This document shows, piece by piece, positions 5,140 through 56,441 of a DNA stretch of 64,000 nt. The DNA is from a virus (Duplodnaviria > Heunggongvirae > Uroviricota > Caudoviricetes). The DNA lies in IMG/VR virus record IMGVR_UViG_2870083564_000004, positions 34,943 through 98,942 of that record. One strand, written 5' to 3'. The position numbers and the translations under genes are program-made. Below the pieces are notes generated by a model. That model searched no databases. It saw nothing but the letters and a program-made list of their open reading frames with translations, and was not told the origin of the DNA. Within the stretch, counting starts at the first letter, position 1; every line of letters starts with the position of its first letter.

Positions 5140-5829
5140 TCATTCCTTGAGGCGTGCTCCTGAGTCAAGGTCGGCGACCATCCCGTCAGCGGAATAGAGT
5201 TGCAACATCGCGCGAGCGGCCTCGACGTTCGACGTCGTGAGCCATTCTCCCCAATCGTCCGGCCGAAGTATGACGATCGACCGCTTTTCGTCGCCCGGCT
5301 TGTGCATGCGCGACATGATGGCATGCCCTTCGGCATTCACCGTGATCATCGACATCGCGTGCGATTCGTTCCCGTCCGTGCCCGTCAACGTGCGCCAGAT
5401 CCCCGCGACGCAGTAGGGCCGCCAGCCCGTCAGGCCGATTCGATGCCAGACGTTTCGGCCGGTCTCGTAGCACGGCTCGTAAATCCATCGCACCGGAATC
5501 AGGCAGCGGCGACCTGCGCGCCACGCCGGCCCGTATAGCGGCGATCGCCCAAGATTGTCATCGCGCACGTTCATCGTGCTACGCATGATCGGCGGCTTCT
5601 TGCCCTCCTCTTTCGCCTTCTCGATGTTCGCCTTCTGCAAGGCGCGCGGCCAGTAGCCGAACCCAGCGAGAATCGCCTCGACGCGCCCATTGACCATCGC
5701 CACGGTGGGCGCGAGATAGTCCGGGTAAATCTCAGGCTCCCAAGGCGTTCTCTTCCATAGGTCGATTAGGCCAAGCCGTAGCTCGCTGATCCCCGGATCT
5801 TCGTCCGGCGCGCGGTAATTGGTGCACAC
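5140..5829 (-). CDS. SOS response-associated peptidase (SRAP/YedK, DUF159)
   Basis: The GTG start gives M-C-T-N-Y with the catalytic Cys at position 2. SRAP-like blocks are present (RRCLIPVRWIYE, MITVNAEGHAIMSRMH, RPDDWGEWL). The track ORF extends 15 codons further upstream. Confidence 0.6.
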   Translation of the reverse strand: MCTNYRAPDEDPGISELRLGLIDLWKRTPWEPEIYPDYLAPTVAMVNGRVEAILAGFGYWPRALQKANIEKAKEEGKKPPIMRSTMNVRDDNLGRSPLYGPAWRAGRRCLIPVRWIYEPCYETGRNVWHRIGLTGWRPYCVAGIWRTLTGTDGNESHAMSMITVNAEGHAIMSRMHKPGDEKRSIVILRPDDWGEWLTTSNVEAARAMLQLYSADGMVADLDSGARLKE

Positions 5830-5880
5830 GGCGGCACCTCTTTTCAGGGGATGGATCACTTCATCATAGTCCAAGATATA

Positions 5881-5896
5881 CTGTATAAAATTACAG
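5881..5896. promoter_or_regulatory. LexA (SOS) box CTGTATAAAATTACAG
   Basis: Perfect CTGT-N8-ACAG with an AT-rich spacer, in the 85-bp gap between the divergent SRAP gene and ORF 5915. Confidence 0.5.
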
Positions 5897-10269: not shown

Positions 10270-11058
10270 TCAGAACAGCCCGACTGGCTGCGCCGCATCG
10301 TCCCAGCTGAAAATGATCAGCTCGCGGCGCTCGACGCCCTTCCCGCCGCCTATCGTGTACTGAATCGGCACACTCTCGATATGGAAGCCGGCGAACACGC
10401 GCCGGATCTCGGGATGGTCGTTGAGGCTGACGATCGCCCGCCCCTTGATCGACCGCAGCCGCTCGGCCATCTTCTCGTATTCCGCGAACGGAAACGCAAC
10501 GCCGTAGCCTTCGGTCTCGAAATACGGCGGGTCGAGGTAGAACAGCGTGTGCGGCCGATCGTAGCGATCGATGCAGGTCGCCCAATCAAGCCGCTCGATG
10601 TACGCGTTCGCGAGGCGAATATGCGCCGCCGATAGCTCCTCCTCGATGCGCAACAGGTTGAGGCCGGGCACCGACGTTGTCGCCGTTCCGAACGTCTGCC
10701 CTTCGAGCTTGCCGCCAAAGCAACTTTTCTGAAGGTAGTAGAAGCGTGCCGCGCGCTGGATATCGGTGAGGGTTTCCGGGGCCATGTGCTTGAGCCATTC
10801 GAACACCTGCCGGCTCGTCAGCGCCCATTTGAACTGACGCACGAACTCTTCGAGATGGTGCTGAACAACGCGATACAGGTTCACCAGCTCGCCGTTGATA
10901 TCGTTGATCACCTCGACCTTGGCCGGCGGTCGCATGAAGTACAGCGCCGCCCCGCCCGCGAACACCTCGACGTAGCAGTCGTGCTTCGGAAAGCGCGGGA
11001 TGATGTGATCCGCGAGACGACGCTTGCCGCCGATCCAAGGGATGATGGGATTTGCCAT
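10270..11058 (-). CDS. Dam-like N6-adenine DNA methyltransferase (D12 class)
   Basis: Starts MANPIIPWIGGKRR and has FAGGAAL (motif I) and LDPPY (motif IV). The track ORF has a 62-codon Arg-rich upstream extension. Confidence 0.75.
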   Translation of the reverse strand: MANPIIPWIGGKRRLADHIIPRFPKHDCYVEVFAGGAALYFMRPPAKVEVINDINGELVNLYRVVQHHLEEFVRQFKWALTSRQVFEWLKHMAPETLTDIQRAARFYYLQKSCFGGKLEGQTFGTATTSVPGLNLLRIEEELSAAHIRLANAYIERLDWATCIDRYDRPHTLFYLDPPYFETEGYGVAFPFAEYEKMAERLRSIKGRAIVSLNDHPEIRRVFAGFHIESVPIQYTIGGGKGVERRELIIFSWDDAAQPVGLF

Positions 11059-11201
11059 TGTGAAAGCCGTTTTTAAACTTGATGTAGAATCCGGCCCGCC
11101 TACGTAGGTAAGCAGGGCCTTGGCCTCTTTCACTGGCGCTATCAGTGGAAAGGCGGCCGGCATGCGTGTTCCCGCACGCACGCCGGCCGCCCTGTTTCTC
11201 G

Positions 11202-11747
11202 TTACTTCCGCGCGCAGTCCGGCGTCTCGGGCCGCACCGCGCATACATAGCCCTGTAGGGCCGTCAGTTTGTCGATCTCGCGCTGATCGTCGCCGGCGAC
11301 GCCGAAAACGCGTTCCGCAACCGCTGCGTCGACGTCTGCGTAGGTGGCGGCACCATCGCCCATGCCGGCGGCGCTGGAAGCGCCGGGCACGCCGTCGCGA
11401 CCGGCTGCCGTGCAGTTTCGGACGGCGACGCGCAGCCGCTCAGTGCCAGCGGCAAGAGCAGCCCGCAGGCTGCGATTCTCTGCTTCATGCTCGTTCCTCT
11501 CCTTCGTGGTTCGTTGGTCGACGGCGGCCACCGCCGACGCGGCGGCATCGTGCGCGGCGATCGCCCGCTGCTCGGCGTCGAGCGCGGCACGCGAGATCGC
11601 GCCCAACGCTTCGGCGTGCCGTTGCGCGGCGCGAGCGCGCGCGGCCTGCTCATCGGCAAGCCGACGTACGCCGACCAGGTGATCGACGCCAGCGCCGGCC
11701 GCCATGCCAAGCAGCGCGGCCATCAGATAGGGTGTTGCTTTCGGCAT
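11202..11747 (-). CDS. Rz-like i-spanin
   Basis: N-terminal TM (YLMAALLGMAAGAGV) followed by an Ala/Arg-rich coiled coil. The start overlaps the endolysin stop as TGATG. Confidence 0.55.
   Translation of the reverse strand: MPKATPYLMAALLGMAAGAGVDHLVGVRRLADEQAARARAAQRHAEALGAISRAALDAEQRAIAAHDAAASAVAAVDQRTTKERNEHEAENRSLRAALAAGTERLRVAVRNCTAAGRDGVPGASSAAGMGDGAATYADVDAAVAERVFGVAGDDQREIDKLTALQGYVCAVRPETPDCARK
11264..11488 (-). CDS. Rz1-like o-spanin lipoprotein (embedded in Rz, +1 frame)
   Basis: MKQRIAACGLLLPLALSGC lipobox followed by a Pro-rich sequence, lying wholly inside the Rz ORF. Confidence 0.5.
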   Translation of the reverse strand: MKQRIAACGLLLPLALSGCASPSETARQPVATACPALPAPPAWAMVPPPTQTSTQRLRNAFSASPATISARSTN

Positions 11748-12238
11748 CACAGCCCCCGTTCGCAAATTGCGCGCTCCGTAGCGCGGCGTTTCACGAGACC
11801 CGGCAGCACTCGACCGCCGGCAGTCACCCACTGCGGCCGACCGTTGTCCGACTCGTTGATCGCGCGGCACGCGCCCCGCCAGTCGCCAGAATTGAACCGC
11901 CTCGCGGTTGTGCTTCCGCAGTAGGCTCGCGGCCCGATGTTGTAGGCGAAGCTCACTGCAGCCGCGAGCTGATATGTGCGCCCCCTCAAGCCTGGCGTGC
12001 ACGTCAGCACCGGCTTCGCGTGCTCAATGAGCCGTTGCTCGAGCCGAGCGCGGCATTCATCACGCGTGAAGCGCTGGCCGACGTACACGTCTTTCGTATC
12101 GCCATTGCACGCCGTGATGATGCCGATCGGGTCTGGTCGTGCGACGAGGACCTCGCCCTCAAATGCAGGGACGATAGAAAGCAAAAGGGCCGCTGTCGCG
12201 GCCCCTACCAATCCAATCAGCGTCTTCTTCTCAGCCAT
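11747..12238 (-). CDS. SAR endolysin (GH24 / T4-type lysozyme)
   Basis: N-terminal signal-anchor-release helix (LIGLVGAATAALLLSIV) followed by FEGEVLVARPDPIGIITACNGDTK with the catalytic E/D/T. Confidence 0.7.
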   Translation of the reverse strand: MAEKKTLIGLVGAATAALLLSIVPAFEGEVLVARPDPIGIITACNGDTKDVYVGQRFTRDECRARLEQRLIEHAKPVLTCTPGLRGRTYQLAAAVSFAYNIGPRAYCGSTTARRFNSGDWRGACRAINESDNGRPQWVTAGGRVLPGLVKRRATERAICERGL

Positions 12239-12443
12239 CGTGATGCTCCAGTTCACGCAGGCGTGCGGCCAGTTCGACTTGCTCTCGACGGTCCTTGCGC
12301 CGTGCGAAGTAAAAATTCAAACCGAAAGTCGCGATCGCCGTGAGAATACCGACGATGACGCCGATATCGGTCAACGTAAGCGACGACGCGACCGACGCTA
12401 TGCTTCCCGCATAGCTCACGGCTTCCGTAGGACTAGCTCGCAT
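12231..12443 (-). CDS. class II (pin)holin
   Basis: 70 aa with two TM helices and a charged C-terminus (FARRKDRREQ). Resembles phage 21 S21 pinholin, the type paired with SAR endolysins. Confidence 0.55.
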   Translation of the reverse strand: MRASPTEAVSYAGSIASVASSLTLTDIGVIVGILTAIATFGLNFYFARRKDRREQVELAARLRELEHHDG

Positions 12444-12485
12444 CCACTCCTCGCAGAAATGAAAAAGCCGCCCAAAGGCGGCGCA

Positions 12486-13220
12486 TTAAATGATCCCGGT
12501 TCCGTCCAACACCATGAATCGATAGTGCCAACATTCGCGAAACGTTGCGACATTGGGATGTCGGCCGCCGTTGTATAGCAGCGTCCCCCAAGATACGTTG
12601 CCGCCGCTCACCCGCACGGCGCTTATCTCAAGGATGTCCCACAGCCGCTGATTGCTGTTCGACGATCCCCAAATGAAATGCGCAGGCCACATTCCCGAAA
12701 TCAACACCGGACGACCATACGATCGCTGCTGCCATTGAGGACTCGGAGCACCCTCCACCGTCCAGCCCGTTCCATTCATGTAGACATCCTGAATCACGTC
12801 GAGCACACGGTAAAACGGCGTCAACGCATCTGCAATCAATTGACTGCGCTCGTTGAACACCTGCAGTCCGAATCCCCGGTCCGCCGGCGGGACGTTGGAA
12901 AACACAAAGAAGCGCACGGTGGCCTGAGTTTCGGTAATGAAGCGCACCGTGTAGGTCCGCCCGTCGTTGCTATAGGCGTCCCAAATCGATATCCCCACTC
13001 CCGGGTCTGCGGAGAACGCATATAGCGGAACTTCGGCAGAGAATGTGAACGAGCACACCCAAAATTGCCCTTCGTAGGGAATATTTTTGTCATTCCTGAC
13101 CGTCTCAATACGAATCAGTTGCGATATCGCCACCATCGACTGAACGAGTTGATAGTTCGGCGTCGAACCGTCGATCTGAAACACGCCCCCTTCCGTAAAG
13201 GCTTGGAATCTGCCATCCAT
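12486..13220 (-). CDS. hypothetical protein downstream of J
   Basis: 244-aa ORF with clean, non-Arg-rich composition. Confidence 0.45.
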   Translation of the reverse strand: MDGRFQAFTEGGVFQIDGSTPNYQLVQSMVAISQLIRIETVRNDKNIPYEGQFWVCSFTFSAEVPLYAFSADPGVGISIWDAYSNDGRTYTVRFITETQATVRFFVFSNVPPADRGFGLQVFNERSQLIADALTPFYRVLDVIQDVYMNGTGWTVEGAPSPQWQQRSYGRPVLISGMWPAHFIWGSSNSNQRLWDILEISAVRVSGGNVSWGTLLYNGGRHPNVATFRECWHYRFMVLDGTGII

Positions 13221-50126: not shown

Positions 50127-50369
50127 TCACGCCGTTGTCTCCTTCTGTTGGGTGAGTTCCGGCCAGATCAGGTGCCAATCCTTTGGCCGTAGATCGCGCC
50201 GGGTTACGTCACCACTCGTGAGCCGTTCAATCGCGACGCAATGACGAACAGGCACCCCGAGTCGCTTCCATTGGCTGACCGCAGCCTTCGTCACGCCGAG
50301 GCAGGTAGCTAATGCAGCGGCCGAGCCAGCAATGGCCGCAGCGCGGGCGATGGGTGAGGTTTTGTCCAT
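50127..50369 (-). CDS. Cro-like HTH regulator (YdaS/Cro family)
   Basis: 80 aa (LGVTKAAVSQWKRLG); divergent from the CI-like gene across an 81-bp AT-rich gap. Confidence 0.55.
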   Translation of the reverse strand: MDKTSPIARAAAIAGSAAALATCLGVTKAAVSQWKRLGVPVRHCVAIERLTSGDVTRRDLRPKDWHLIWPELTQQKETTA

Positions 50370-50450
50370 GGTGAAAGTATAGAAATTTTAAACACCAGAA
50401 GTCAAGCAATACAACACCCAACTAGTTAAGGTTTTCTTTACTCTCTAACC

Positions 50451-50840
50451 ATGAACCTTGCGCAGTGGCTAAAAATTTCCCGGGAAAAAGCGGGACTCAC
50501 CCTCGAAGAGATCGGCGACGTCGTTAGCCGATCAAAGGGGGCAATTTCTCAGTGGGAAAACGGGAAGACAGAGCCGAGCTATTGGCAGGTGTTGGCCATC
50601 TATGAGCGGACCAATCGTGCCGTCGATCTGCCGACTCTTGCTGACGCGCCGGTCGAAGTGGGATTGAGCATCAGCGATGCATGGCTCGCCAAGCTCAGCC
50701 CGAGCGCACGATCTCTGATCGACGCAGTCGCCGTGGCAGACCAAAGAAGCGTATCCCCGGCCGCCCTCGAAGCAATCGCAACTTTGCTTAAATCAATTCC
50801 CGGGGGAGATCCCGAGGACGGTGAACAGCTGCGTCTGTAG
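50451..50840 (+). CDS. CI-like repressor, XRE HTH, no S24 peptidase domain
   Basis: LTLEEIGDVVSRSKGAISQWENGK HTH; 129 aa. No Ser/Lys autocleavage motifs are present. Confidence 0.65.
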   Translation: MNLAQWLKISREKAGLTLEEIGDVVSRSKGAISQWENGKTEPSYWQVLAIYERTNRAVDLPTLADAPVEVGLSISDAWLAKLSPSARSLIDAVAVADQRSVSPAALEAIATLLKSIPGGDPEDGEQLRL

Positions 50841-51129
50841 ACTCGCGTGAGTCGACCATCGAGCCATGAATCGGCTCAAGCTGAGCGTCGTCTGCCAGCA
50901 TATTGTTACCGATTCCCAATCGGCGCCTATTTTTTGTGAGTGTGATCCCGGGCTCGCCAAGAAGGGTTATCGTCCATTCTGTGGACTTGTGAATCCTGCC
51001 AACCAGTACGATACGCCCCACTAGGGCTGGGTTCCACGCAGAAACCACCCTTGCCAGATCCCCCGGCCTGCAGCGCAGGCGCGCCGTCGATTCTTTGTTC
51101 ATTACCGCCCTCTTTATTATTTTCGCCAC
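50788..51129 (-). CDS. hypothetical protein (convergently overlaps the 3' end of the CI-like gene)
   Basis: Composition looks coding (not Arg-rich), but the overlap makes it uncertain. Confidence 0.25.
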   Translation of the reverse strand: MAKIIKRAVMNKESTARLRCRPGDLARVVSAWNPALVGRIVLVGRIHKSTEWTITLLGEPGITLTKNRRRLGIGNNMLADDAQLEPIHGSMVDSRESTDAAVHRPRDLPRELI

Positions 51130-51132
51130 AAA

Positions 51133-51150
51133 ACTGTATGAATATACAGT
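51133..51150. promoter_or_regulatory. LexA/SOS box aCTGTATGAATATACAGt (18/20 to the E. coli consensus)
   Basis: CTGT-N8-ACAG with complementary flanks, sitting at the left edge of the AT-rich island. TATAAT is about 45 bp downstream. Confidence 0.55.
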
Positions 51151-51217
51151 ATTCTGCCAAGGTCAAAGTGGCCTATCAATGACAATTCTGACAGGATATA
51201 ATGGGGCCATATCAAAG

Positions 51218-51367
51218 ATGAATCATCATCACCAAGGGAAATCTATCCCCATTGATGCGCATCACCAATATAGGGCATGGATACAATTTGTCAGTCATGT
51301 CACCCGTGCAGCCGAACAAACTAAGCGCGCAAAAGATGCGGTCGGCATGCGCCAAGAGCGCTATTGA
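51218..51367 (+). CDS. small His-rich ORF (MNHHHQGK...), candidate antirepressor-like peptide
   Basis: 49 codons between the SOS box and the 301-aa gene, with a weak RBS. Confidence 0.2.
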   Translation: MNHHHQGKSIPIDAHHQYRAWIQFVSHVTRAAEQTKRAKDAVGMRQERY

Positions 51368-51400
51368 GAACTACAACCACAATCCGGGGGATGTAAACTG

Positions 51401-52306
51401 ATGGACATGAGTGAATTTCGCATTACCTACGACGGGCCAGCCCTCGAGACGTCTGAAATGGACGTCCGCGAACTCGCGCCCGCTCTCATTGCAATTGGCG
51501 ACCTGCTGGAAGCGGCCACCAAGTCCCTTTGTGGCGACCAAGTCAAATCACAGGTAAATGTCCGTGGCAGTTTCAAGACTGGAAGTTTCGGTATCGACTT
51601 CAATCTCGTCACATCATTTGTCAGCAGGATGCGAGAGCTATTTGCCGGAAACGAGGCAACGGCGATCGCAAACGCACTAGCTATTCTCGGAGCAATCGGG
51701 TTTGCAGCGGAAAAGGGCGGTCGCGGCCTCTTTTCAGTTTTAAAGTGGCTACGCGGTCGCCCCATTGAGCGCGTCCAGGTTCAAGACAATAGTGCAATCC
51801 TGTATGTAGAAGGTGACATGCTTGAGATCGAACTCAGCGTGCTCACCCTACTACGCGACGTATCCGTACGCGAGGCAACGGCCCGCGTGCTGTCTCCGCT
51901 TTCCAGAGAAGGCATTATGATCTTCTCCGCCGGCTCGGACTCCGACATTGTGGAAACCGTTACAGACGATGAGATCGGTTGGTTTCATGCGCCCGAGCAG
52001 CAGGATATTCTGCTTGTTGATGAAACTCGCAAGATGGCCTTCTCAATCGTCTCTCTGGCATTCAAAGATGACAATAAGTGGCGCCTGTACGACGGTGCGG
52101 CAACGATTCATGCGTCAATCACCGATGCCGACTTTCTCAAACGTGTTGACAGCAATCAAATCAGCTTTGCAAAAGGAGACGTTCTGGTCTGTAGCGTCCG
52201 CGTCAAGCAATGGCAAACACCATCTGGTGCAAAAACAGATTACGAAGTGACTGAAGTTCTCGAACATCGCACAGCTGCCCGGCAGATCCAGCTTCCAGGC
52301 CTCTAA
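51401..52306 (+). CDS. hypothetical 301-aa protein (AT-rich island gene 1)
   Basis: Clean ORF with GGGGGA RBS; one internal hydrophobic segment; no motif I recognise. Followed by an intrinsic terminator. Confidence 0.5.
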   Translation: MDMSEFRITYDGPALETSEMDVRELAPALIAIGDLLEAATKSLCGDQVKSQVNVRGSFKTGSFGIDFNLVTSFVSRMRELFAGNEATAIANALAILGAIGFAAEKGGRGLFSVLKWLRGRPIERVQVQDNSAILYVEGDMLEIELSVLTLLRDVSVREATARVLSPLSREGIMIFSAGSDSDIVETVTDDEIGWFHAPEQQDILLVDETRKMAFSIVSLAFKDDNKWRLYDGAATIHASITDADFLKRVDSNQISFAKGDVLVCSVRVKQWQTPSGAKTDYEVTEVLEHRTAARQIQLPGL

Positions 52307-52308
52307 TT

Positions 52309-52336
52309 GCCCCGCCCCGCGCGGGGCTTTTCATTG
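52309..52336 (+). terminator. intrinsic terminator
   Basis: GCCCCGC-GCGGGGC followed by TTTTCATT. Confidence 0.5.
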
Positions 52337-52604
52337 CCGGCCCCGCTCGAACGTCTCCCTCCAGAACGTTGCACCCACTGACGTCAGCAGCGCACTCTCG
52401 TCGTCTCAGGCGGCGCCACGCCTCCGATAGCCAGTTGTCAAATCCAGCGCGGCCATCGTCCGGTCGGCGGACGCCCTTCCCTCAACATTCGACCACTCGA
52501 AGATCGTGATCACTCCGTGTGACGTCATGGTTGGCGCTCCCCCTGTTGATTTCAACTTACACAAAGCTGCGCAGAACATTTCATATTGATAAAATTGATA
52601 TGCC

Positions 52605-53234
52605 ATGCGTGATACGGTACTGCAATGTCAGCATGGGCAAACCGCCACGGAGCAGATATTGTTAAGAAACTTAAAATTTACATTACTCACAATTTCATCA
52701 ATTATATTAATAATCATACTGCTTGGAGTATACAAAACAGCAAGAATTTCCCAGGAGAGACGAACGGAACGCAGCTTGATCCAAGTTTCCCTGCTTTTGG
52801 AGGCATCGCTCAAATCGGATCGAACAAAGAAACCGGAGGACTACGCGAGATTTGGCGACTTGAGACCTATGAACCATGTCCAAGAAGAACATTCAGACGG
52901 ACCATTCTCGCCCTTCGAAAGCAGAGAATTAGCAGATATTGCAAATATCTACAAGGAAAGTGTGACGCGCATCGTCGAGCTCATAGACAAGAAAAGCACA
53001 CTCGAAAGCCAAATTCGCGACGCTCGCTGGTATAAATCGGATGACTGGTATCAAAAAATTGAAGATGCGCGCCATGAGCTTGCATCTTTATCAATCGATT
53101 TAATTAGATCATTGCGAGATGCCCGATCGGCAGGCCTCGATGCTAGCAAGCACCTAAATGAATTCTATTTCCCTGCTACCGAAATAGACCTTGGCATCAT
53201 TCGCTACAGTTCCCTGACCTATTCCACAGAGTAA
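52605..53234 (+). CDS. single-pass membrane protein with coiled coil (AT-rich island gene 2)
   Basis: N-terminal TM (FTLLTISSIILIIILLGVY), then a charged helical region. About 38% GC. Confidence 0.45.
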   Translation: MRDTVLQCQHGQTATEQILLRNLKFTLLTISSIILIIILLGVYKTARISQERRTERSLIQVSLLLEASLKSDRTKKPEDYARFGDLRPMNHVQEEHSDGPFSPFESRELADIANIYKESVTRIVELIDKKSTLESQIRDARWYKSDDWYQKIEDARHELASLSIDLIRSLRDARSAGLDASKHLNEFYFPATEIDLGIIRYSSLTYSTE

Positions 53235-53341
53235 GGACCTTCCGCGCGAATGCGCGCCACCCCGCGGCTGGAGCCTCCCTGAGAAGGGGGTTCCCCGCGA
53301 AATAATCGGGCTTGCCCGCCCTCCCCGCCGATCCGAAGAAT

Positions 53342-53368
53342 CAGCCCGCTTCCCCGCGGGCTTTTTTG
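53342..53368 (+). terminator. intrinsic terminator
   Basis: CAGCCCGC-ttcc-GCGGGCT followed by TTTTTTG. Confidence 0.55.
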
Positions 53369-53465
53369 CGTCCGTTCGACGTGGCGGACATCCCTCCTCT
53401 GTCTATGTGTACGGCGCGTCCATCCCGAGGTTACGAATTTCTATACTGGGCAAGTATATCTTTGC

Positions 53466-53495
53466 TTGACTTTTGATGTTCAGCTTTTCTATACT
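53466..53495 (+). promoter_or_regulatory. near-consensus sigma-70 promoter TTGACT-N18-TATACT
   Basis: Lies in an AT-rich tract with no ORF downstream for about 650 bp. Confidence 0.5.
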
Positions 53496-53502
53496 TTATC
53501 TC

Positions 53503-54170
53503 ACCGCAGCACGGATCGCTGCGCCACCGCTCCGGCGGATCGATCTTTAACAACCTAAGGTAAGCCGGGACCGCAGTATTGGGAGCAACCGGCCGGGGCG
53601 ATCTAGCCTCGTGAATCAGGGCAGACGAACCGCGCTAGGCCGATGTTGGCTACCGGACAGAAATCTGAATGAACCTGATACAAGACAGCCACTAGAAAAG
53701 CGCCCGATGGCTTTGTAATCGGCGCAAACCTCGCGCGCCCCGGAGCCGGCACGGCCGGATGTAGCCGGGCGCGCGAGTGGAAGCAGATTCATGGAGCCGG
53801 AATGCGCAGGCTGATGCGCGACCAGCATAGTCGCTGGAATCCCAAAGCCGGAGATCAGCGCCGGCCCGGCTCCATGAATCTGTTTCGGAATTGCGCCCGG
53901 GTAGATGGACAGCCAACTCCATCGGTGAGCGCGACTCGCCAGCCCTGCGAGTGATAAACGAAGTGGGCCGGGTGCCGTGAGTTGGGCGATGGCAAGCTAC
54001 CCGACGGCCGCGCAGACGGTCACATGCCAAAGTGACGCCGGATGACGTAACCGGCACCTCCGACTGCGCTGATCGAATGGCATTGATCTCTCAGTGCCGT
54101 TCCTTGAGCGTTGTATTGATTTCGGATTACTAAATTATGAAGAGAAACAGCGCAATCGCGAATCTTCAAA
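53503..54170 (+). ncRNA. candidate structured non-coding RNA (unknown class)
   Basis: No + strand ORF of 60 aa or more over about 850 bp. Begins after a consensus promoter. GC-rich core with long-range inverted repeats (CAGATTCATGGAGCCGG ... CCGGCTCCATGAATCTG). The only - strand ORFs are Arg-rich artefacts. Confidence 0.3.
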
Positions 54171-54180
54171 AGGAGATCCA

Positions 54181-54408
54181 GTGGAATCGAATCGGAAGAT
54201 CCCAACCGTGTCGGTCGAGTGGTTGGAGAACGCGGCAGCTGATCTCGAGGTGAGCGCAAACGCGAGCCGCGAGACTTGGGCCCTGCTCGGCCTATCCCAT
54301 CGGTACAGCGAGAACATCGGCCGCGCTCACGCTATGCGACACGCGGCGCGCATGAAGCTCGACTACGACCGACGCATGTTCCTGCGTACGGTCGGGCTCA
54401 AGGTCTAG
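54181..54408 (+). CDS. small protein (75 aa)
   Basis: GTG start 5 nt after a perfect AAGGAG. The same frame is open from 54094 (GTG, no SD). Confidence 0.3.
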   Translation: MESNRKIPTVSVEWLENAAADLEVSANASRETWALLGLSHRYSENIGRAHAMRHAARMKLDYDRRMFLRTVGLKV

Positions 54409-54913
54409 GAATTCGATCATGAGCCAACCCGCAAAGAACCTGCTCGAGCTGCGCCGCATGCCTCGCGGCGCGCTCGTCGAACACCTGCTGCGCGAGATCG
54501 CGCTGAATCTGATCGCCCCCGGCGTCGCCGCAGCAACGGTCTAGTTACTCAACTGCCTCGACGGCAACTCGACATCATCCAACGAGGATTGATCATGGAG
54601 CAATCACGCATCAGGGAGTATGTGAAAGGCTGGAACGACGCAGCTCTCGGCCGCGAGCCGCGGTCGAAGACGATTGGCTATCGGCTTGGCTATGCGGATG
54701 CACGCAGAGGCTGACGTTGGCCACAGTCAAGATCTGGATCAAAGCAGCCGCAGCGGTAATCATCTTCCTAGTTTGGAATGCTTACGATGATCATCGCGAT
54801 CAGCAACTACAGCGAGCATCGTTTCGGCGGGTAGCCTGATGTATTACCGATGAATCGCCGCATGGCTTGCCGAGCACGCGGCCACTCGAAACAGCCGAGA
54901 GCAGATTGGTCGA

Positions 54914-55192
54914 TTACCTGCCGGCAGCCTTCTTTACCGCGGCCTTCTTTACTGCGGCCTTTTTTACTGCTCGTTTTCTCGTCGGAGCATGTCCGTTCAT
55001 ATAGTCAATGAACGCCTGAAGACTCATCTTTACGCCGTTTCTGCGCTTCGTCTTCCCTGCACACCAGATGACGGATGATTTGGTGACAATCAGATCTCCG
55101 AGAAAATTATCGGTGTTATTGCGAATCTCAAGCTCAATACCATTGTTCTTGAGTTCAATCTCAGCAGAGAGATCCTTCACTTTAACTTTCAT
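54914..55192 (-). CDS. small protein with Lys/Ala-rich histone-H1-like tail (possible nucleoid-associated/DNA-binding)
   Basis: C-terminus KRAVKKAAVKKAAVKKAAGR; AT-rich gene. Confidence 0.4.
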   Translation of the reverse strand: MKVKVKDLSAEIELKNNGIELEIRNNTDNFLGDLIVTKSSVIWCAGKTKRRNGVKMSLQAFIDYMNGHAPTRKRAVKKAAVKKAAVKKAAGR

Positions 55193-55400
55193 TTTCGCCC
55201 CCGGATCTTACTTATTCGCCACATGGCGCTTCGAATCATAGTGCACCCGCACACTATAACAATAGGTTTTCTACTTACCCTGTAGCCACGCAAATTCCGG
55301 TGTTCCGGGCGCGTGGCTTTTTTGTGGCAGTCGCAAGCCACACGCCGTAGTTCCCCGCTCGCCGCGCGCGGGTTCTCCTCTCGGATAAGCGCGGCCTTTC

Positions 55401-55436
55401 GGCGGGGCGGCCCGTATGTGCGCCCCGCCGTTTTTT
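55401..55436 (+). terminator. intrinsic terminator
   Basis: GGCGGGGCGG-loop-CGCCCCGCC followed by GTTTTTT. A second hairpin/T6 lies at about 55283-55320. Confidence 0.5.
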
Positions 55437-55628
55437 ACCGGAGATACCCATCAAAACCGCTTCGAAATTCGTTGTCGCGGCCGTGCTGTTTCTGGTGCTG
55501 CTGTCGATCGTGACTCCATGGCTGGTGAATCAGGACAGCAGCATCACCCTGCTCGCCGTGCCGTTCGCGTGGCTGGCGTATGCCGCCGCTTTCGTGAAAT
55601 TTCTTCCCCCTCATATCAAGGAGAACAA

Positions 55629-56441
55629 GTGAAACGCCTGCTTCTGATTTTGCTACTCGCGCCCGTGATGTTCCTCGTGACCGGTTGCGACAACGTCCCT
55701 GCCGGCTATGTCGGCGTGAAGGTGCAACGCTACGGCGACGACCGCGGCGTCAACGTCGAGGTGAAGGGTCCCGGTCGCTACTTCAACGGGCCGAACGTCG
55801 ACATATTCCTGTTCCCGACGTTCACGCAGTCCTACGTGTGGGACAAGGCGGGCAAGTCCGACGAGTCGTTCACCTTCCAGACGATTGAAGGTCTGTCGGT
55901 CAACACCGACATCGGCGTCAGCTACGCGATCCCCCGAGAGAACGCCCCGAAGGTGTTCCAGAAGTACCGACGCGGCGTCGACGAAATCACGGGCGTCTAT
56001 CTGCGCGCGATCGTGCGCGACGCATTGAATCTCGCCGGCGCATCGATGGCTGTCGAGGACGTCTACGGCAAGGGCAAGGCGGCACTACAGCAGCGCGTCG
56101 AGGACGAGGTCAAGGCAAACGCCGCGAAGGTCGGGATCAGCGTCGAGAAGGTCTACTTCGTGAACCAGATGCGCCTCCCCGAACAAGTCATGAACTCGAT
56201 CAACGGGAAGATCGCCGCGACGCAGATCGCGCAGCAGAAAGAGAACGAACTGCGCGCCGCCGAGGCCGACGCGGCGAAGCAGGTCGCGATCGCCAAGGGC
56301 GAGGCCGAAGCGCTGGAGGTGAAAGCAAAAGCACTGCGCGAGAACGGCCAGATCCTGCAACAGATGGCGATCGAAAAGTGGGACGGCAAGCTTCCCCAGT
56401 ACATGGGCGCGAACAGCGTCCCGTTCGTCCAGATCAAGTAA
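55629..56441 (+). CDS. SPFH/band-7 domain lipoprotein
   Basis: GTG start after AAGGAG; lipobox LVTGC; prohibitin-like core with C-terminal coiled coil. The track ORF starts upstream at 55416. Confidence 0.7.
   Translation: MKRLLLILLLAPVMFLVTGCDNVPAGYVGVKVQRYGDDRGVNVEVKGPGRYFNGPNVDIFLFPTFTQSYVWDKAGKSDESFTFQTIEGLSVNTDIGVSYAIPRENAPKVFQKYRRGVDEITGVYLRAIVRDALNLAGASMAVEDVYGKGKAALQQRVEDEVKANAAKVGISVEKVYFVNQMRLPEQVMNSINGKIAATQIAQQKENELRAAEADAAKQVAIAKGEAEALEVKAKALRENGQILQQMAIEKWDGKLPQYMGANSVPFVQIK

What the first reader, a model, noticed from the sequence alone, without database searches (positions are those of the whole stretch)
51100..55300. AT-rich 4-kb island immediately downstream of the CI-like repressor: SOS box, 301-aa unknown protein, membrane protein, ncRNA-like tract and small ORFs
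This stretch drops from about 65% GC to roughly 40-50%. It occupies the position that rexA-rexB hold in lambda, downstream of cI on the same strand.
- It starts with a near-consensus LexA box.
- Gene 1 (51401-52306) is a 301-aa soluble protein with no motif I recognise.
- Gene 2 (52605-53234) is a 209-aa single-pass membrane/coiled-coil protein; each gene has its own intrinsic terminator.
- The pair matches the soluble sensor plus membrane effector layout of Rex-like and many abortive-infection systems.
- An ORF-free promoter-driven tract, three tiny ORFs with strong SD sequences and an H1-tailed DNA-binding-like protein follow.
- None of these proteins matches a defence family I can name, so this is the most likely site of an undescribed lysogeny-expressed defence or exclusion module.
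Basis: partly seen in the sequence, partly recalled or inferred. Interest (0 to 1): 0.85.

Follow-up and report, generated by a model that had tools for sequence, protein, structure and literature searches.

The report
Prophage cargo slot with candidate defence gene
This is the immunity region of a Burkholderia pseudomallei prophage, where separate pieces of foreign DNA sit between the phage's own control elements: one carries a gene from a catalogued but untested anti-phage candidate family, one a rare membrane protein, and next to them lies a conserved folded RNA that no RNA database lists.

Summary
The region is the immunity region of a phi1026b/phiE125-like prophage. It is bracketed by two near-identical early promoters: PR at 50376-50405 (minus strand) and PL at 53466-53495 (plus strand).

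- **LexA box (51134-51149).** It belongs to a conserved 104-aa gene on the minus strand. All 52 related phage loci with that gene have the box upstream of it. This gene is a likely SOS-induced antirepressor.
- **Cargo slot.** Cargo sits between the LexA box and PL. This gap is only 80-230 bp in 42 of 51 related phages.
- **Gene 1 (301 aa).** It is a full-length member of PADLOC candidate family PDC-S42 (E=7e-111), which is the same as NCBIfam "LAPAL". The family is widespread, single-copy and untested. It has a C-terminal OB fold and sits in the lysogeny module of unrelated phages.
- **Gene 2 (209 aa).** It is a near-orphan, fast-evolving single-pass membrane protein. It never accompanies gene 1 outside this prophage type.
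- **"ncRNA-like tract".** This is the PL leader: a boxA-containing structured RNA of about 290 nt with strong covariation and no Rfam match.
- **Tiny ORFs.** These are ordinary early phage genes.

A defence role for gene 1 is plausible but untested.

The parts
50127..50369 (-). Cro-like regulator, 80 aa
   Evidence: Pfam YdaS_toxin E=2e-19 and P22_Cro E=1e-10.
50374..50409 (-). PR-like promoter/operator block driving cro (TTGACT-18-TATACT)
   Evidence: Promoter scan scores 10 of 12 matches. The block is a 36-nt inverted repeat, 83% complementary, with 53462-53497. Alignment shown.
50451..50840 (+). CI-like XRE repressor, 129 aa, with no S24 self-cleavage domain
   Evidence: Pfam finds only HTH_31 and HTH_3. 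Homologues in related phages are annotated as repressors.
50788..51102 (-). Conserved 104-aa gene convergent with the repressor gene and overlapping its 3' end; candidate SOS-induced antirepressor
   Evidence: ATG at 51102 is preceded by AAGAGGG. Protein-level homologues occur in 44-51 related phage loci at 30-70% identity. The other-strand ORF is not conserved. No Pfam, NCBIfam or PADLOC family matches.
51134..51149 (.). LexA box CTGTATGAATATACAG, operator of the 104-aa leftward gene
   Evidence: Perfect consensus, 0.03 expected by chance. It overlaps the -10 of a minus-strand promoter at 51160..51133. All 52 loci with a homologue of the small gene have CTGT-N8-ACAG 44-76 nt upstream of it.
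51401..52306 (+). Gene 1: 301-aa PDC-S42 / LAPAL-family protein with a C-terminal OB fold (cargo 1)
52309..52327 (+). Intrinsic terminator after gene 1
   Evidence: 7 G-C pairs followed by TTTTCATT.
52326..52541 (.). Spacer shared with other phages, separating cargo slot 1 from slot 2
   Evidence: 71% identical to phiBtTUL1a L087:3403-3619. There it lies between a Phd-Doc module and a different 210-aa membrane protein.
52605..53234 (+). Gene 2: 209-aa single-pass membrane, all-helical protein (cargo 2); near-orphan
   Evidence: Only 3 homologues among 5.8 billion proteins, plus 2 more by exhaustive HMMER. The transmembrane helix and length are kept at 53% and 28% identity. Model pLDDT 81.5. 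GC is 44%. Versus L002 there are 25 nucleotide and 16 amino-acid differences.
53343..53362 (+). Intrinsic terminator after gene 2
   Evidence: Hairpin followed by TTTTTTGC.
53427..53497 (+). OL/PL: early-left promoter TTGACT-18-TATACT with two copies of a ...TTTCTATACT operator-like repeat
   Evidence: Promoter scan. Direct repeat D4 and inverted repeat I1. 29 of 36 positions are identical to the PR block.
53503..53790 (+). Structured PL-leader RNA core of about 290 nt: two hairpins, boxA-like GATCGATCTTTAACAA at 53538-53553, then a multi-helix domain
   Evidence: Conserved in more than 60 Burkholderia phages and prophages. In the 69-sequence alignment, 95.5% of cells are paired against 31-40% in slid controls. 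38 pairs show compensatory change against 13-18 in controls, and 0 of 500 shuffles reach these values. UUCG and GNRA loops swap in one hairpin. No Rfam match.
53791..54093 (+). Optional 3' extension of the leader, including a 21-bp-stem hairpin at 53780-53886
   Evidence: Present in phi644-2, Bups phi1 and vB_E192a. Absent from Magia, BgManors32, L002 and phi1026b. MFE z-score is -5.8 for 53503-54100.
54094..54839 (+). Conserved early-left phage genes; the first gene's true start is probably inside the 54094-54408 ORF, followed by 41-, 41- and 40-aa ORFs
   Evidence: phrog_16318 E=2e-52, phrog_20909 E=5e-25, phrog_21177 E=3e-5. 88-93% identical DNA in phiBt-TXDOH, L002 and phi1026b.
54914..55192 (-). 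Third, separate low-GC insertion: 92-aa protein with an AVKKAA-repeat (H1-like) tail
   Evidence: No homologue in the related phage loci. 18 homologues elsewhere, some carrying PF07382 HC2. GC is 48.6%.

Best explanation
**What is shown**
- The stretch is the immunity region of a phi1026b/phiE125-like (Stanholtvirus) prophage of Burkholderia pseudomallei.
- A CI-like repressor without a self-cleavage domain sits between two near-identical early promoters, PR (driving cro) and PL.
- A perfect LexA box sits just upstream of a conserved 104-aa gene on the opposite strand, which converges on the repressor gene.
- In most relatives this box lies only about 100 bp from PL. Here the gap holds about 2.3 kb of lower-GC cargo in two independent units, each with its own terminator.
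- Unit 1 is a 301-aa member of the PDC-S42/LAPAL family. It is single-copy, widespread and under purifying selection, and it ends in an OB fold.
- Unit 2 is a 209-aa single-pass membrane helical protein from a tiny, fast-evolving family. That family always sits just upstream of PL.
- The PL transcript begins with a conserved structured leader RNA that contains a boxA.

**What is inferred**
- After DNA damage, LexA cleavage switches on the 104-aa gene. Its product inactivates the repressor, acting as an antirepressor.
- The leader RNA recruits Nus factors, or RNA polymerase directly, so that PL transcription reads through terminators.
- Both cargo genes are expressed in the lysogen and protect it from other phages.
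- Gene 1 most likely uses its aromatic- and basic-lined OB fold to bind phage single-stranded nucleic acid or a phage protein. It would then block or abort the infection.
- Gene 2 most likely acts at the membrane as a superinfection-exclusion protein.
- The two do not work as a pair.
For: **Backbone**
- Relatedness to Burkholderia Stanholtvirus phages.
- The two best promoter matches share identical hexamers and spacing and form a 36-nt inverted repeat.
- The repressor has only HTH domains.
- A LexA box lies upstream of the small gene in 52 of 52 loci.

**Cargo slot**
- The gap from LexA box to PL is 82-226 bp in 42 of 51 loci and 0.5-3 kb in 9, all with low GC.
- Other cargo in the slot: PDC-M63A/DUF6932 in L129, PDC-M24B in phi644-2, Phd-Doc in phiBtTUL1a, and LysR plus MFS in phi1026b.
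- The phi1026b slot genes are expressed in the lysogen (PMC2920897).

**Gene 1**
- Family matches.
- Codon-position-3 bias in substitutions.
- It lies directly after an S24 repressor in a Xanthomonas prophage and in the immunity region of a Pusillimonas prophage.
- It lies in the lysogeny modules of Listeria phage 188, Lactobacillus phage A2 and Bifidobacterium phage PMBT6.
- Some homologues neighbour MADS genes, other PDC candidates, IS elements or integrases.
- OB fold, with invariant K226, W227, R228, K258, W271, Y281 and H289.

**Gene 2**
-.

**RNA**
-.
Against: - No experiment shows an anti-phage effect for any PDC-S42 member. The PADLOC authors describe the 145 PDC systems as untested, and no paper names PDC-S42 or the LAPAL motif.
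- NCBIfam labels the family "putative phage structural protein".
- Most immediate neighbours of homologues in 58 diverse genomes are housekeeping genes. Only about 10 of 113 are defence- or mobility-related.
- About 60% identity across genera is unusually conservative for a defence gene.
- No convincing sigma-70 promoter was found upstream of gene 1 or gene 2. Expression in the lysogen is therefore assumed.
- No enzymatic or pore-forming domain was recognised in gene 1.
- The antirepressor and antitermination roles rest on position and analogy only.
Confidence: 0.65

Rival explanations
1. Genes 1 and 2 form one Rex-like two-component abortive-infection system, with a soluble sensor and a membrane effector, switched by the LexA box.
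For: - The position between the repressor and PL matches lambda rexAB.
- One protein is soluble and the other is a membrane protein.
- The two genes are adjacent in the window and in two B. thailandensis prophages.
Against: - Gene 2 is found next to none of 80 gene-1 homologues from other species.
- No conserved partner of any kind emerged from neighbour clustering.
- Gene-2-like proteins sit beside Phd-Doc or PDC-M63 cargo instead.
- A terminator and a spacer shared with other phages separate the two genes.
- The two genes evolve at very different rates.
- The LexA box serves the leftward gene.
- PADLOC returned no family other than PDC-S42 for gene 1 and none for gene 2.
Confidence: 0.05
2. 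Gene 1 is a phage structural (virion) protein, as its NCBIfam name says, and is not an accessory gene.
For: NCBIfam NF053583 "LAPAL motif-containing putative phage structural protein" matches at 285 bits. The family is in PHROGs.
Against: - In every phage or prophage context examined, the gene lies in the lysogeny or immunity module, next to a repressor or integrase, and never among head or tail genes.
- Many homologues are solitary genes next to housekeeping genes.
- Closely related phages lack the gene altogether.
- No structural-protein fold was found.
Confidence: 0.04
3. Gene 1 and/or gene 2 are lysogeny-expressed cargo with a role other than defence. Examples are a nucleic-acid-binding regulator of host or prophage physiology, an addiction-type module, or a host-fitness or virulence factor.
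For: - The same slot carries clearly non-defence cargo (LysR plus MFS) in phi1026b and a toxin-antitoxin pair in phiBtTUL1a.
- High conservation and housekeeping neighbours of many gene-1 homologues.
- The OB fold fits many DNA- or RNA-binding roles.
Against: - The family was picked up independently because members are embedded in BREX, DISARM or type I RM loci.
- Some homologues here neighbour MADS and PDC genes.
- Its recurrent position beside repressors in unrelated phages is where known exclusion genes sit.
Confidence: 0.25
4. The conserved tract at 53503-54093 is not a functional RNA. It would be conserved DNA (operators, an origin or a recombination site) or would hide small protein genes.
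For: Depositors annotated short ORFs over it in Magia, Bups phi1 and phiBtTUL1a. It lies beside operator repeats.
Against: - Compensatory base changes are found in 38 of 80 pairs, with 95.5% of cells paired against 31-40% in slid controls.
- Whole hairpins are replaced while their stems are preserved, and UUCG and GNRA loops swap.
- Many G-U pairs occur on the plus strand only. These would be A-C mismatches on the other strand.
- Indels are not multiples of three.
Confidence: 0.07

Closest known systems
PADLOC phage defence candidate PDC-S42 (Payne et al. 2024, bioRxiv 10.1101/2024.01.29.577857), which is the same family as NCBIfam NF053583 "LAPAL"
   Same: Gene 1 matches end to end (E=7e-111; 285 bits) and is a single gene without a conserved partner.
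   Different: The family was defined from genes embedded in BREX, DISARM or type I RM loci and has not been tested. Here the gene is prophage cargo in the repressor-to-PL slot. The NCBIfam name ("structural protein") conflicts with every genomic context seen.
Lambda rexA-rexB
   Same: Location on the repressor's strand between the repressor gene and OL/PL. Presumed expression in the lysogen. One soluble and one membrane protein.
   Different: No sequence or fold similarity was detected. The two genes are not a conserved pair. Each has its own terminator. Gene 2 has one transmembrane helix; from memory, RexB has four.
Prophage superinfection-exclusion membrane proteins (P22 SieA/SieB, lambda SieB)
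   Same: Gene 2 is a small, fast-evolving, prophage-encoded membrane protein placed next to PL.
   Different: This is analogy only. No homology was found in Pfam, PHROGs (weak phrog_7263), NCBIfam or PADLOC. The family has about 6 known members.
LexA-controlled antirepressors (coliphage 186 Tum, Salmonella Gifsy antirepressors, N15 AntC)
   Same: A repressor lacking a self-cleavage domain, plus a small gene behind a perfect and universally conserved LexA box.
   Different: The 104-aa protein matches no known antirepressor family. It is convergent with and overlaps the repressor gene. Binding to the repressor is untested.
Lambda nutL / rrn boxA leaders and HK022 put antiterminator RNAs
   Same: The element lies immediately downstream of the early-left promoter. 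It contains a boxA-like CGNTCTYTAACAA and conserved hairpins.
   Different: It is much larger (about 290 nt core, up to about 600 nt) with a multi-helix domain. The loop of the hairpin after boxA is not conserved, so it is not a lambda-type boxB. No second copy lies on the PR side. It is not in Rfam.
Morons and moron hotspots of Burkholderia phages (Ronning et al. 2010, PMC2920897)
   Same: Variable, lower-GC, terminator-bounded insertions at a fixed site between conserved phage genes. In phi1026b the genes in this slot are expressed in the lysogen.
   Different: I did not see this slot (LexA box to PL) or its defence-candidate cargo mentioned in the passages of that paper that I read.

Membership tests
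PADLOC PDC-S42 | Full-length match to the family HMM | tested here: met
   PDLC05015 E=7.2e-111, residues 1-299 of a 302-position profile.
PADLOC PDC-S42 | Single-gene system with no obligatory partner | tested here: met
   One copy per locus and no conserved neighbour across 80 species.
PADLOC PDC-S42 | Embedded in or next to known defence systems, which was the basis of the prediction | tested here: inconclusive
   This does not hold at this locus, which is prophage cargo. Among 113 nearest neighbours in 58 genomes there are a few MADS (mad3 in 3, mad8 in 2) and PDC-S64/S32 hits. Most neighbours are housekeeping genes.
PADLOC PDC-S42 | Protects against phage | not testable with these tools
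   The PADLOC authors call the 145 PDC systems untested. No paper names PDC-S42.
NCBIfam NF053583 LAPAL "putative phage structural protein" | HMM score above the curated cutoff, and a LAPAL motif | tested here: met
   285 bits against a cutoff of 60. The motif LAPAL is at residues 25-29.
NCBIfam NF053583 LAPAL "putative phage structural protein" | Encoded among virion structural genes | tested here: not met
   The gene lies next to a repressor or integrase in the window, L002/L003, L084, L085, Listeria phage 188, Lactobacillus phage A2 and Bifidobacterium phage PMBT6.
Rex-like two-gene abortive-infection system | The two genes co-occur as a conserved pair | tested here: not met
   0 of 80 loci from other species carry a gene-2 relative. 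Gene-2 relatives are found with other cargo.
Rex-like two-gene abortive-infection system | Location between the repressor gene and PL, on the repressor's strand | tested here: met
Rex-like two-gene abortive-infection system | Sequence homology to RexA or RexB | tested here: not met
   PADLOC, Pfam and PHROGs returned no Rex family for either protein. I did not check whether each library contains Rex models.
Moron (Hendrix-type phage cargo) | Present in some related phages and absent from others at the same site | tested here: met
Moron (Hendrix-type phage cargo) | Composition different from the phage backbone | tested here: met
   GC is 52.9% for gene 1, 44.0% for gene 2 and 48.6% for the H1-tail region, against 60.4% for the window.
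Moron (Hendrix-type phage cargo) | Own terminator and own promoter | tested here: inconclusive
   Terminators were found after both genes. No promoter passed the scan upstream of either gene; by eye there is only a lone TATAAT at 51197-51202.
LexA-controlled antirepressor module | Conserved LexA operator at the gene's promoter | tested here: met
   52 of 52 loci. The box overlaps the -10 of a minus-strand promoter.
LexA-controlled antirepressor module | The cognate repressor lacks a RecA-stimulated self-cleavage domain | tested here: met
   129 aa with HTH domains only and no Peptidase_S24.
LexA-controlled antirepressor module | The product binds and inactivates the repressor | not testable with these tools
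   No homology to known antirepressor families.
nut/put-type antitermination leader | boxA-like element just downstream of an early promoter | tested here: met
   GATCGATCTTTAACAA at 53538-53553 is the only match in the window. It is conserved across the family.
nut/put-type antitermination leader | Causes terminator read-through | not testable with these tools
   No N-like protein was identified and no second (nutR-like) copy was found.
Any Rfam family (release 15) | Covariance-model match | tested here: not met
   0 hits at gathering score on the whole window. Only chance-level hits at E up to 1 on 53250-54200.

The most novel reading that the evidence does not exclude
Two novel readings remain open.

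- **The leader RNA.** The 290-600-nt boxA-containing leader could be a new class of phage regulatory RNA. It might be a large put-like RNA that makes RNA polymerase terminator-resistant on its own, or a riboregulator gating the early-left operon. It is shared by many Burkholderia temperate phages.
- **Gene 1.** PDC-S42/LAPAL could be a new single-protein immunity factor that senses phage single-stranded nucleic acid through its OB fold.

Together these would make the LexA-box-to-PL gap a defence hotspot usable for gene discovery in a select-agent genus.
Probability: 0.3. Interest if true: 0.7.

Novelty: new member of a known kind. Interest (0 to 1): 0.45.

Why it matters
**Testable anti-phage candidates**
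- Gene 1 is a small, self-contained candidate from a family with more than 1300 members across Proteobacteria and with relatives in Gram-positive phages. No function has been demonstrated for it, and the two databases that list it contradict each other.
- The study defines a precise cargo slot in Burkholderia lambdoid prophages, between the LexA box and PL. In three of the loci with cargo the slot holds PADLOC candidates (PDC-S42, PDC-M24, PDC-M63). This gives a simple way to find more.

**Prophage induction**
- The LexA-controlled small gene is conserved in all 52 loci examined. It is a concrete hypothesis for how these S24-less prophages of B. pseudomallei and B. thailandensis are induced. 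That bears on phage therapy and on strain engineering.

**The leader RNA**
- It is a well-supported structured RNA family missing from Rfam.

**Limits**
- None of this changes a paradigm. The value is in giving testable, well-bounded parts.

Tried and rejected
- **Rfam.** The gathering-score search on the whole window and the permissive search on 53250-54200 returned nothing real. Only chance-level mir-1289 and rydB hits appeared.
- **Structure searches for gene 1.**
  - A PDB profile sequence search found nothing.
  - BFVD gave a DUF6575 protein and an uncharacterised mycobacteriophage protein, neither informative.
  - The afdb50 library was unavailable.
- **Neighbour clustering around gene-1 homologues.** It first seemed to show tandem paralogues. 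This came from how overlapping ORFs were clustered and counted, and a direct BLASTP showed one copy per locus.
- **Gene 2 versus the phiBtTUL1a 210-aa protein.** Direct BLASTP is only marginal (E=0.015 over 36 residues). Their kinship rests on shared architecture, position and a common intermediate hit in L129/L116, so it is tentative.
- **The plus-strand 90-aa ORF at 51095-51367.** Treated as probably non-coding. It shows 84% amino-acid identity against about 96% nucleotide identity with L002 and has no family hits.
- **A second boxA or nutR-like copy on the PR side.** None was found.
- **Flanking direct repeats around the cargo.** None was found.
- **Literature searches.** Searches for PDC-S42, "LAPAL motif", Burkholderia LexA/antirepressor and antiterminator RNAs returned nothing specific.
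- **Not run.** I built no covariance model, because the roughly 290-position model would probably exceed the calibration limit. I did not use the metagenome scan.

Full report
**Context.** The window around 49-57.5 kb is 88-94% identical in patches to Burkholderia phages of the phi1026b/phiE125 group (Stanholtvirus). Proteins 99-100% identical to two of its products are recorded from B. pseudomallei. This is therefore a B. pseudomallei prophage. The 51.2-53.4 kb part is absent from almost all sequenced relatives.

**Checking the observation.** Most listed features are real.
- The LexA box at 51134-51149 is a perfect CTGTATGAATATACAG, with 0.03 matches expected by chance in the window.
- The 301-aa and 209-aa ORFs exist, and each is followed by a terminator-like hairpin with a T-run.
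- Gene 2 has a strongly hydrophobic segment at residues 25-43. Its all-helical model has pLDDT 81.5.
- The composition claim is overstated. The window averages 60.4% GC and the finding 53.3%. Only gene 2 (44.0%) and the H1-tail gene region (48.6%) are below 50%.

**The backbone: two matching promoters.**
- The two best sigma-70 matches in 50-55.6 kb have identical hexamers and spacing (TTGACT-18-TATACT). One lies on the minus strand upstream of the cro-like gene (50405..50376). The other lies on the plus strand at 53466-53495.
- The surrounding 36 nt form an inverted repeat with 83% complementarity (alignment).
- A second copy of the ...TTTCTATACT element lies 48 bp upstream of the right-hand promoter.
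- This is the classic PR/OR and PL/OL arrangement around a repressor gene. The repressor (50451-50840, 129 aa) has only a helix-turn-helix domain and no S24 domain.
- Genes 1 and 2 therefore sit where rexA-rexB sit in lambda.

**The LexA box belongs to a different gene.**
- Immediately left of the box, a minus-strand ORF starts at ATG 51102 behind AAGAGGG. It runs to 50788 and overlaps the end of the repressor gene.
- Its 104-aa product has protein-level relatives at 30-70% identity in dozens of related phages and prophages. The ORF on the other strand does not.
- All 52 loci with such a gene have a perfect CTGT-N8-ACAG 44-76 nt upstream of it, whether or not cargo is present.
- In the window the box overlaps the -10 of a minus-strand promoter.
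- The box is therefore the operator of this leftward gene and not the start of an island.
- A repressor that cannot self-cleave, paired with an SOS-controlled small gene, is the logic of coliphage 186 Tum and the Gifsy antirepressors (from established knowledge). The antirepressor role here is an inference. The protein matches no known family.

**A cargo slot.**
- The distance from the LexA box to the PL promoter is 82-226 bp in 42 of 51 loci. In nine it is 0.5-3 kb, always with lower GC (0.51-0.57).
- Contents of the slot differ from phage to phage:

| Phage or locus | Cargo in the slot |
|---|---|
| This window | Gene 1 (PDC-S42) plus gene 2 |
| L129 | DUF6932/PDC-M63A protein, a 325-aa protein and a gene-2-like membrane protein |
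| phi644-2 | DUF1828/1829 (PDC-M24B) protein |
| phiBtTUL1a | Phd-Doc toxin-antitoxin plus a 210-aa membrane protein |
| phi1026b | LysR regulator plus MFS permease |

- Published RNA-seq of a phi1026b lysogen found the permease and LysR morons expressed independently of the phage genes (PMC2920897).
- A 216-bp spacer between genes 1 and 2 (52326-52541) is shared with phiBtTUL1a. There it separates different cargo. The window's insert is therefore two units, not one.

**Gene 1.**
- *Family.* It matches PADLOC PDC-S42 over its full length (E=7e-111), NCBIfam NF053583 "LAPAL motif-containing putative phage structural protein" (285 bits against a cutoff of 60) and phrog_3243.
- *Status of the family.* The PDC families are 145 untested candidates. 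They were chosen because members are embedded in BREX, DISARM or type I RM loci.
- *Distribution.* There are 1331 homologues, one per locus in 80 species of beta-, gamma- and alphaproteobacteria.
- *Selection.* Against the B. thailandensis copy, 16 of 21 substitutions are at codon position 3 and only 3 change the protein.
- *Context.* The gene follows an S24 repressor directly in a Xanthomonas arboricola prophage. It lies in the immunity region of a Pusillimonas prophage. Distant relatives lie in the CI operon of Listeria phage 188, beside the integrase of Bifidobacterium phage PMBT6, and between lysin and integrase in Lactobacillus phage A2. No context is structural, so the NCBIfam name looks wrong.
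- *Caveat.* Nearest neighbours in 58 diverse genomes are mostly housekeeping genes. A minority are IS1595 transposases, integrases, S24 repressors, MADS genes and other PDC candidates. A defence role is therefore plausible, at roughly even odds, and remains untested.

**Gene 2.**
- It has 3 homologues among 5.8 billion proteins and two more by an exhaustive HMMER search. At 53% and 28% identity these keep the N-terminal membrane helix, the length and a C-terminal P-x-E-I...G...R-Y motif.
- It evolves fast, with 16 amino-acid changes from 25 substitutions against L002.
- It is absent beside every gene-1 homologue outside this prophage type.
- Similar proteins sit just before PL next to other cargo. 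Direct similarity to the phiBtTUL1a protein is marginal.
- The soluble-sensor plus membrane-effector pair is therefore not supported.
- A membrane-level exclusion role, like the Sie proteins, is the most likely function. This rests on analogy only.

**The "ncRNA-like tract".**
- *Conservation.* Starting about 7 nt after the PL -10, the sequence is conserved at 70-95% identity in phages that otherwise differ. These include phi644-2, Bups phi1, vB_E192a, Magia and BgManors32, plus more than 60 IMG/VR prophage contigs.
- *Covariation.* On a 69-sequence alignment with an RNAalifold structure of 80 pairs, 95.5% of cells are paired against 31-40% when partners are slid. 38 pairs show compensatory changes against 13-18 in the controls. 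No shuffle out of 500 reaches the observed values. Two rows of that alignment (L137, L145) are false positives and add only noise.
- *Other signs of an RNA.* One hairpin alternates between UUCG and GNRA loops, and another is replaced wholesale while its stem is kept. Abundant G-U pairs indicate the plus strand is the functional one. The MFE z-score is -5.8.
- *Modules.* The 5' part has two hairpins and a boxA-like GATCGATCTTTAACAA, the only match in the window. Phages lacking the larger domain keep just this roughly 95-nt module.
- *Database status.* Rfam has no match.
- *Reading.* The best interpretation is a nutL-like antitermination leader with an extra, optional structured domain of unknown role.

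**The remaining items.**
- The ORFs at 54094-54839 match PHROG families and are conserved in relatives. They are ordinary early-left genes.
- The 92-aa minus-strand protein with the lysine/alanine-repeat tail is a third, separate low-GC insertion. It is missing from the related phage loci, and longer relatives carry the HC2 histone-H1-like domain.

**Verdict.**
- The "undescribed two-gene defence module switched by LexA" resolves into conserved phage control elements plus independent cargo.
- The main cargo gene belongs to an already catalogued, untested candidate family.
- The new contributions are the slot definition, the universal LexA-controlled small gene, the evidence against the "structural protein" label, and a well-supported structured RNA absent from Rfam.

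Noticed in passing
window 5881-5896, with the minus-strand ORF at 5140-5874: A second perfect CTGT-N8-ACAG LexA box lies 7 nt upstream of a 244-aa ORF. Its N-terminus reads ...VCTNYRAP, which resembles the Cys-first start of SOS-response-associated peptidases (YedK/SRAP). This is probably an ordinary SOS gene.
   Followed up: partly
L092 (OK094664, "Shewanella phage vB_Sb_QDWS") 2501-2781, and OP650936 ("Hujiaoplasma phage zrk29-1"): Two records with very different stated hosts have the same length (47,902 bp). Both carry the Burkholderia-type PL leader RNA at 82.7% identity. The host assignments look doubtful; these may be the same Burkholderia-like phage or a contaminant.
   Followed up: no
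window 54914-55192 (-): A 92-aa protein has a conserved N-terminal domain of about 65 aa and an AVKKAA-repeat tail. It has 18 homologues in Burkholderiales, and longer ones carry PF07382 (histone H1-like HC2). It is a separate low-GC insertion with a promoter-like site at 55262..55235. It could be a small DNA-binding or silencing protein.
   Followed up: partly
L129:4116-5551, and L034/L035 upstream ORFs (L035:4967-5923): By eye, 300-325-aa proteins next to or replacing gene-1-type cargo have a similar-looking C-terminal region. The L129 protein is paired with a DUF6932/PDC-M63A protein. They may be distant relatives of the PDC-S42 architecture. PADLOC and Pfam gave no hit for the 325-aa protein.
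   Followed up: partly
L084 (Pusillimonas prophage) 10871-12581, and Magia gene 057 (L091:2913-3293): Diversity-generating retroelement parts lie close to the immunity region in relatives. These are bAvd plus a reverse transcriptase in L084, and a lectin-fold "possible DGR target" directly after the leader RNA in Magia. No link to the RNA was examined.
   Followed up: no
window 55416-56441 (+): An SPFH/Band-7 (prohibitin-like) lipoprotein is conserved in this phage group (Pfam Band_7 E=1e-23; phrog_200). It is a membrane-scaffold protein in the early-left operon with unknown role.
   Followed up: no
window 51197-51202 and 51219-51367: A lone perfect TATAAT without a -35 element lies 200 bp upstream of gene 1. 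It is followed by a histidine-rich 49-aa ORF (MNHHHQGK...). This may be gene 1's promoter and leader. There is no conservation evidence.
   Followed up: no
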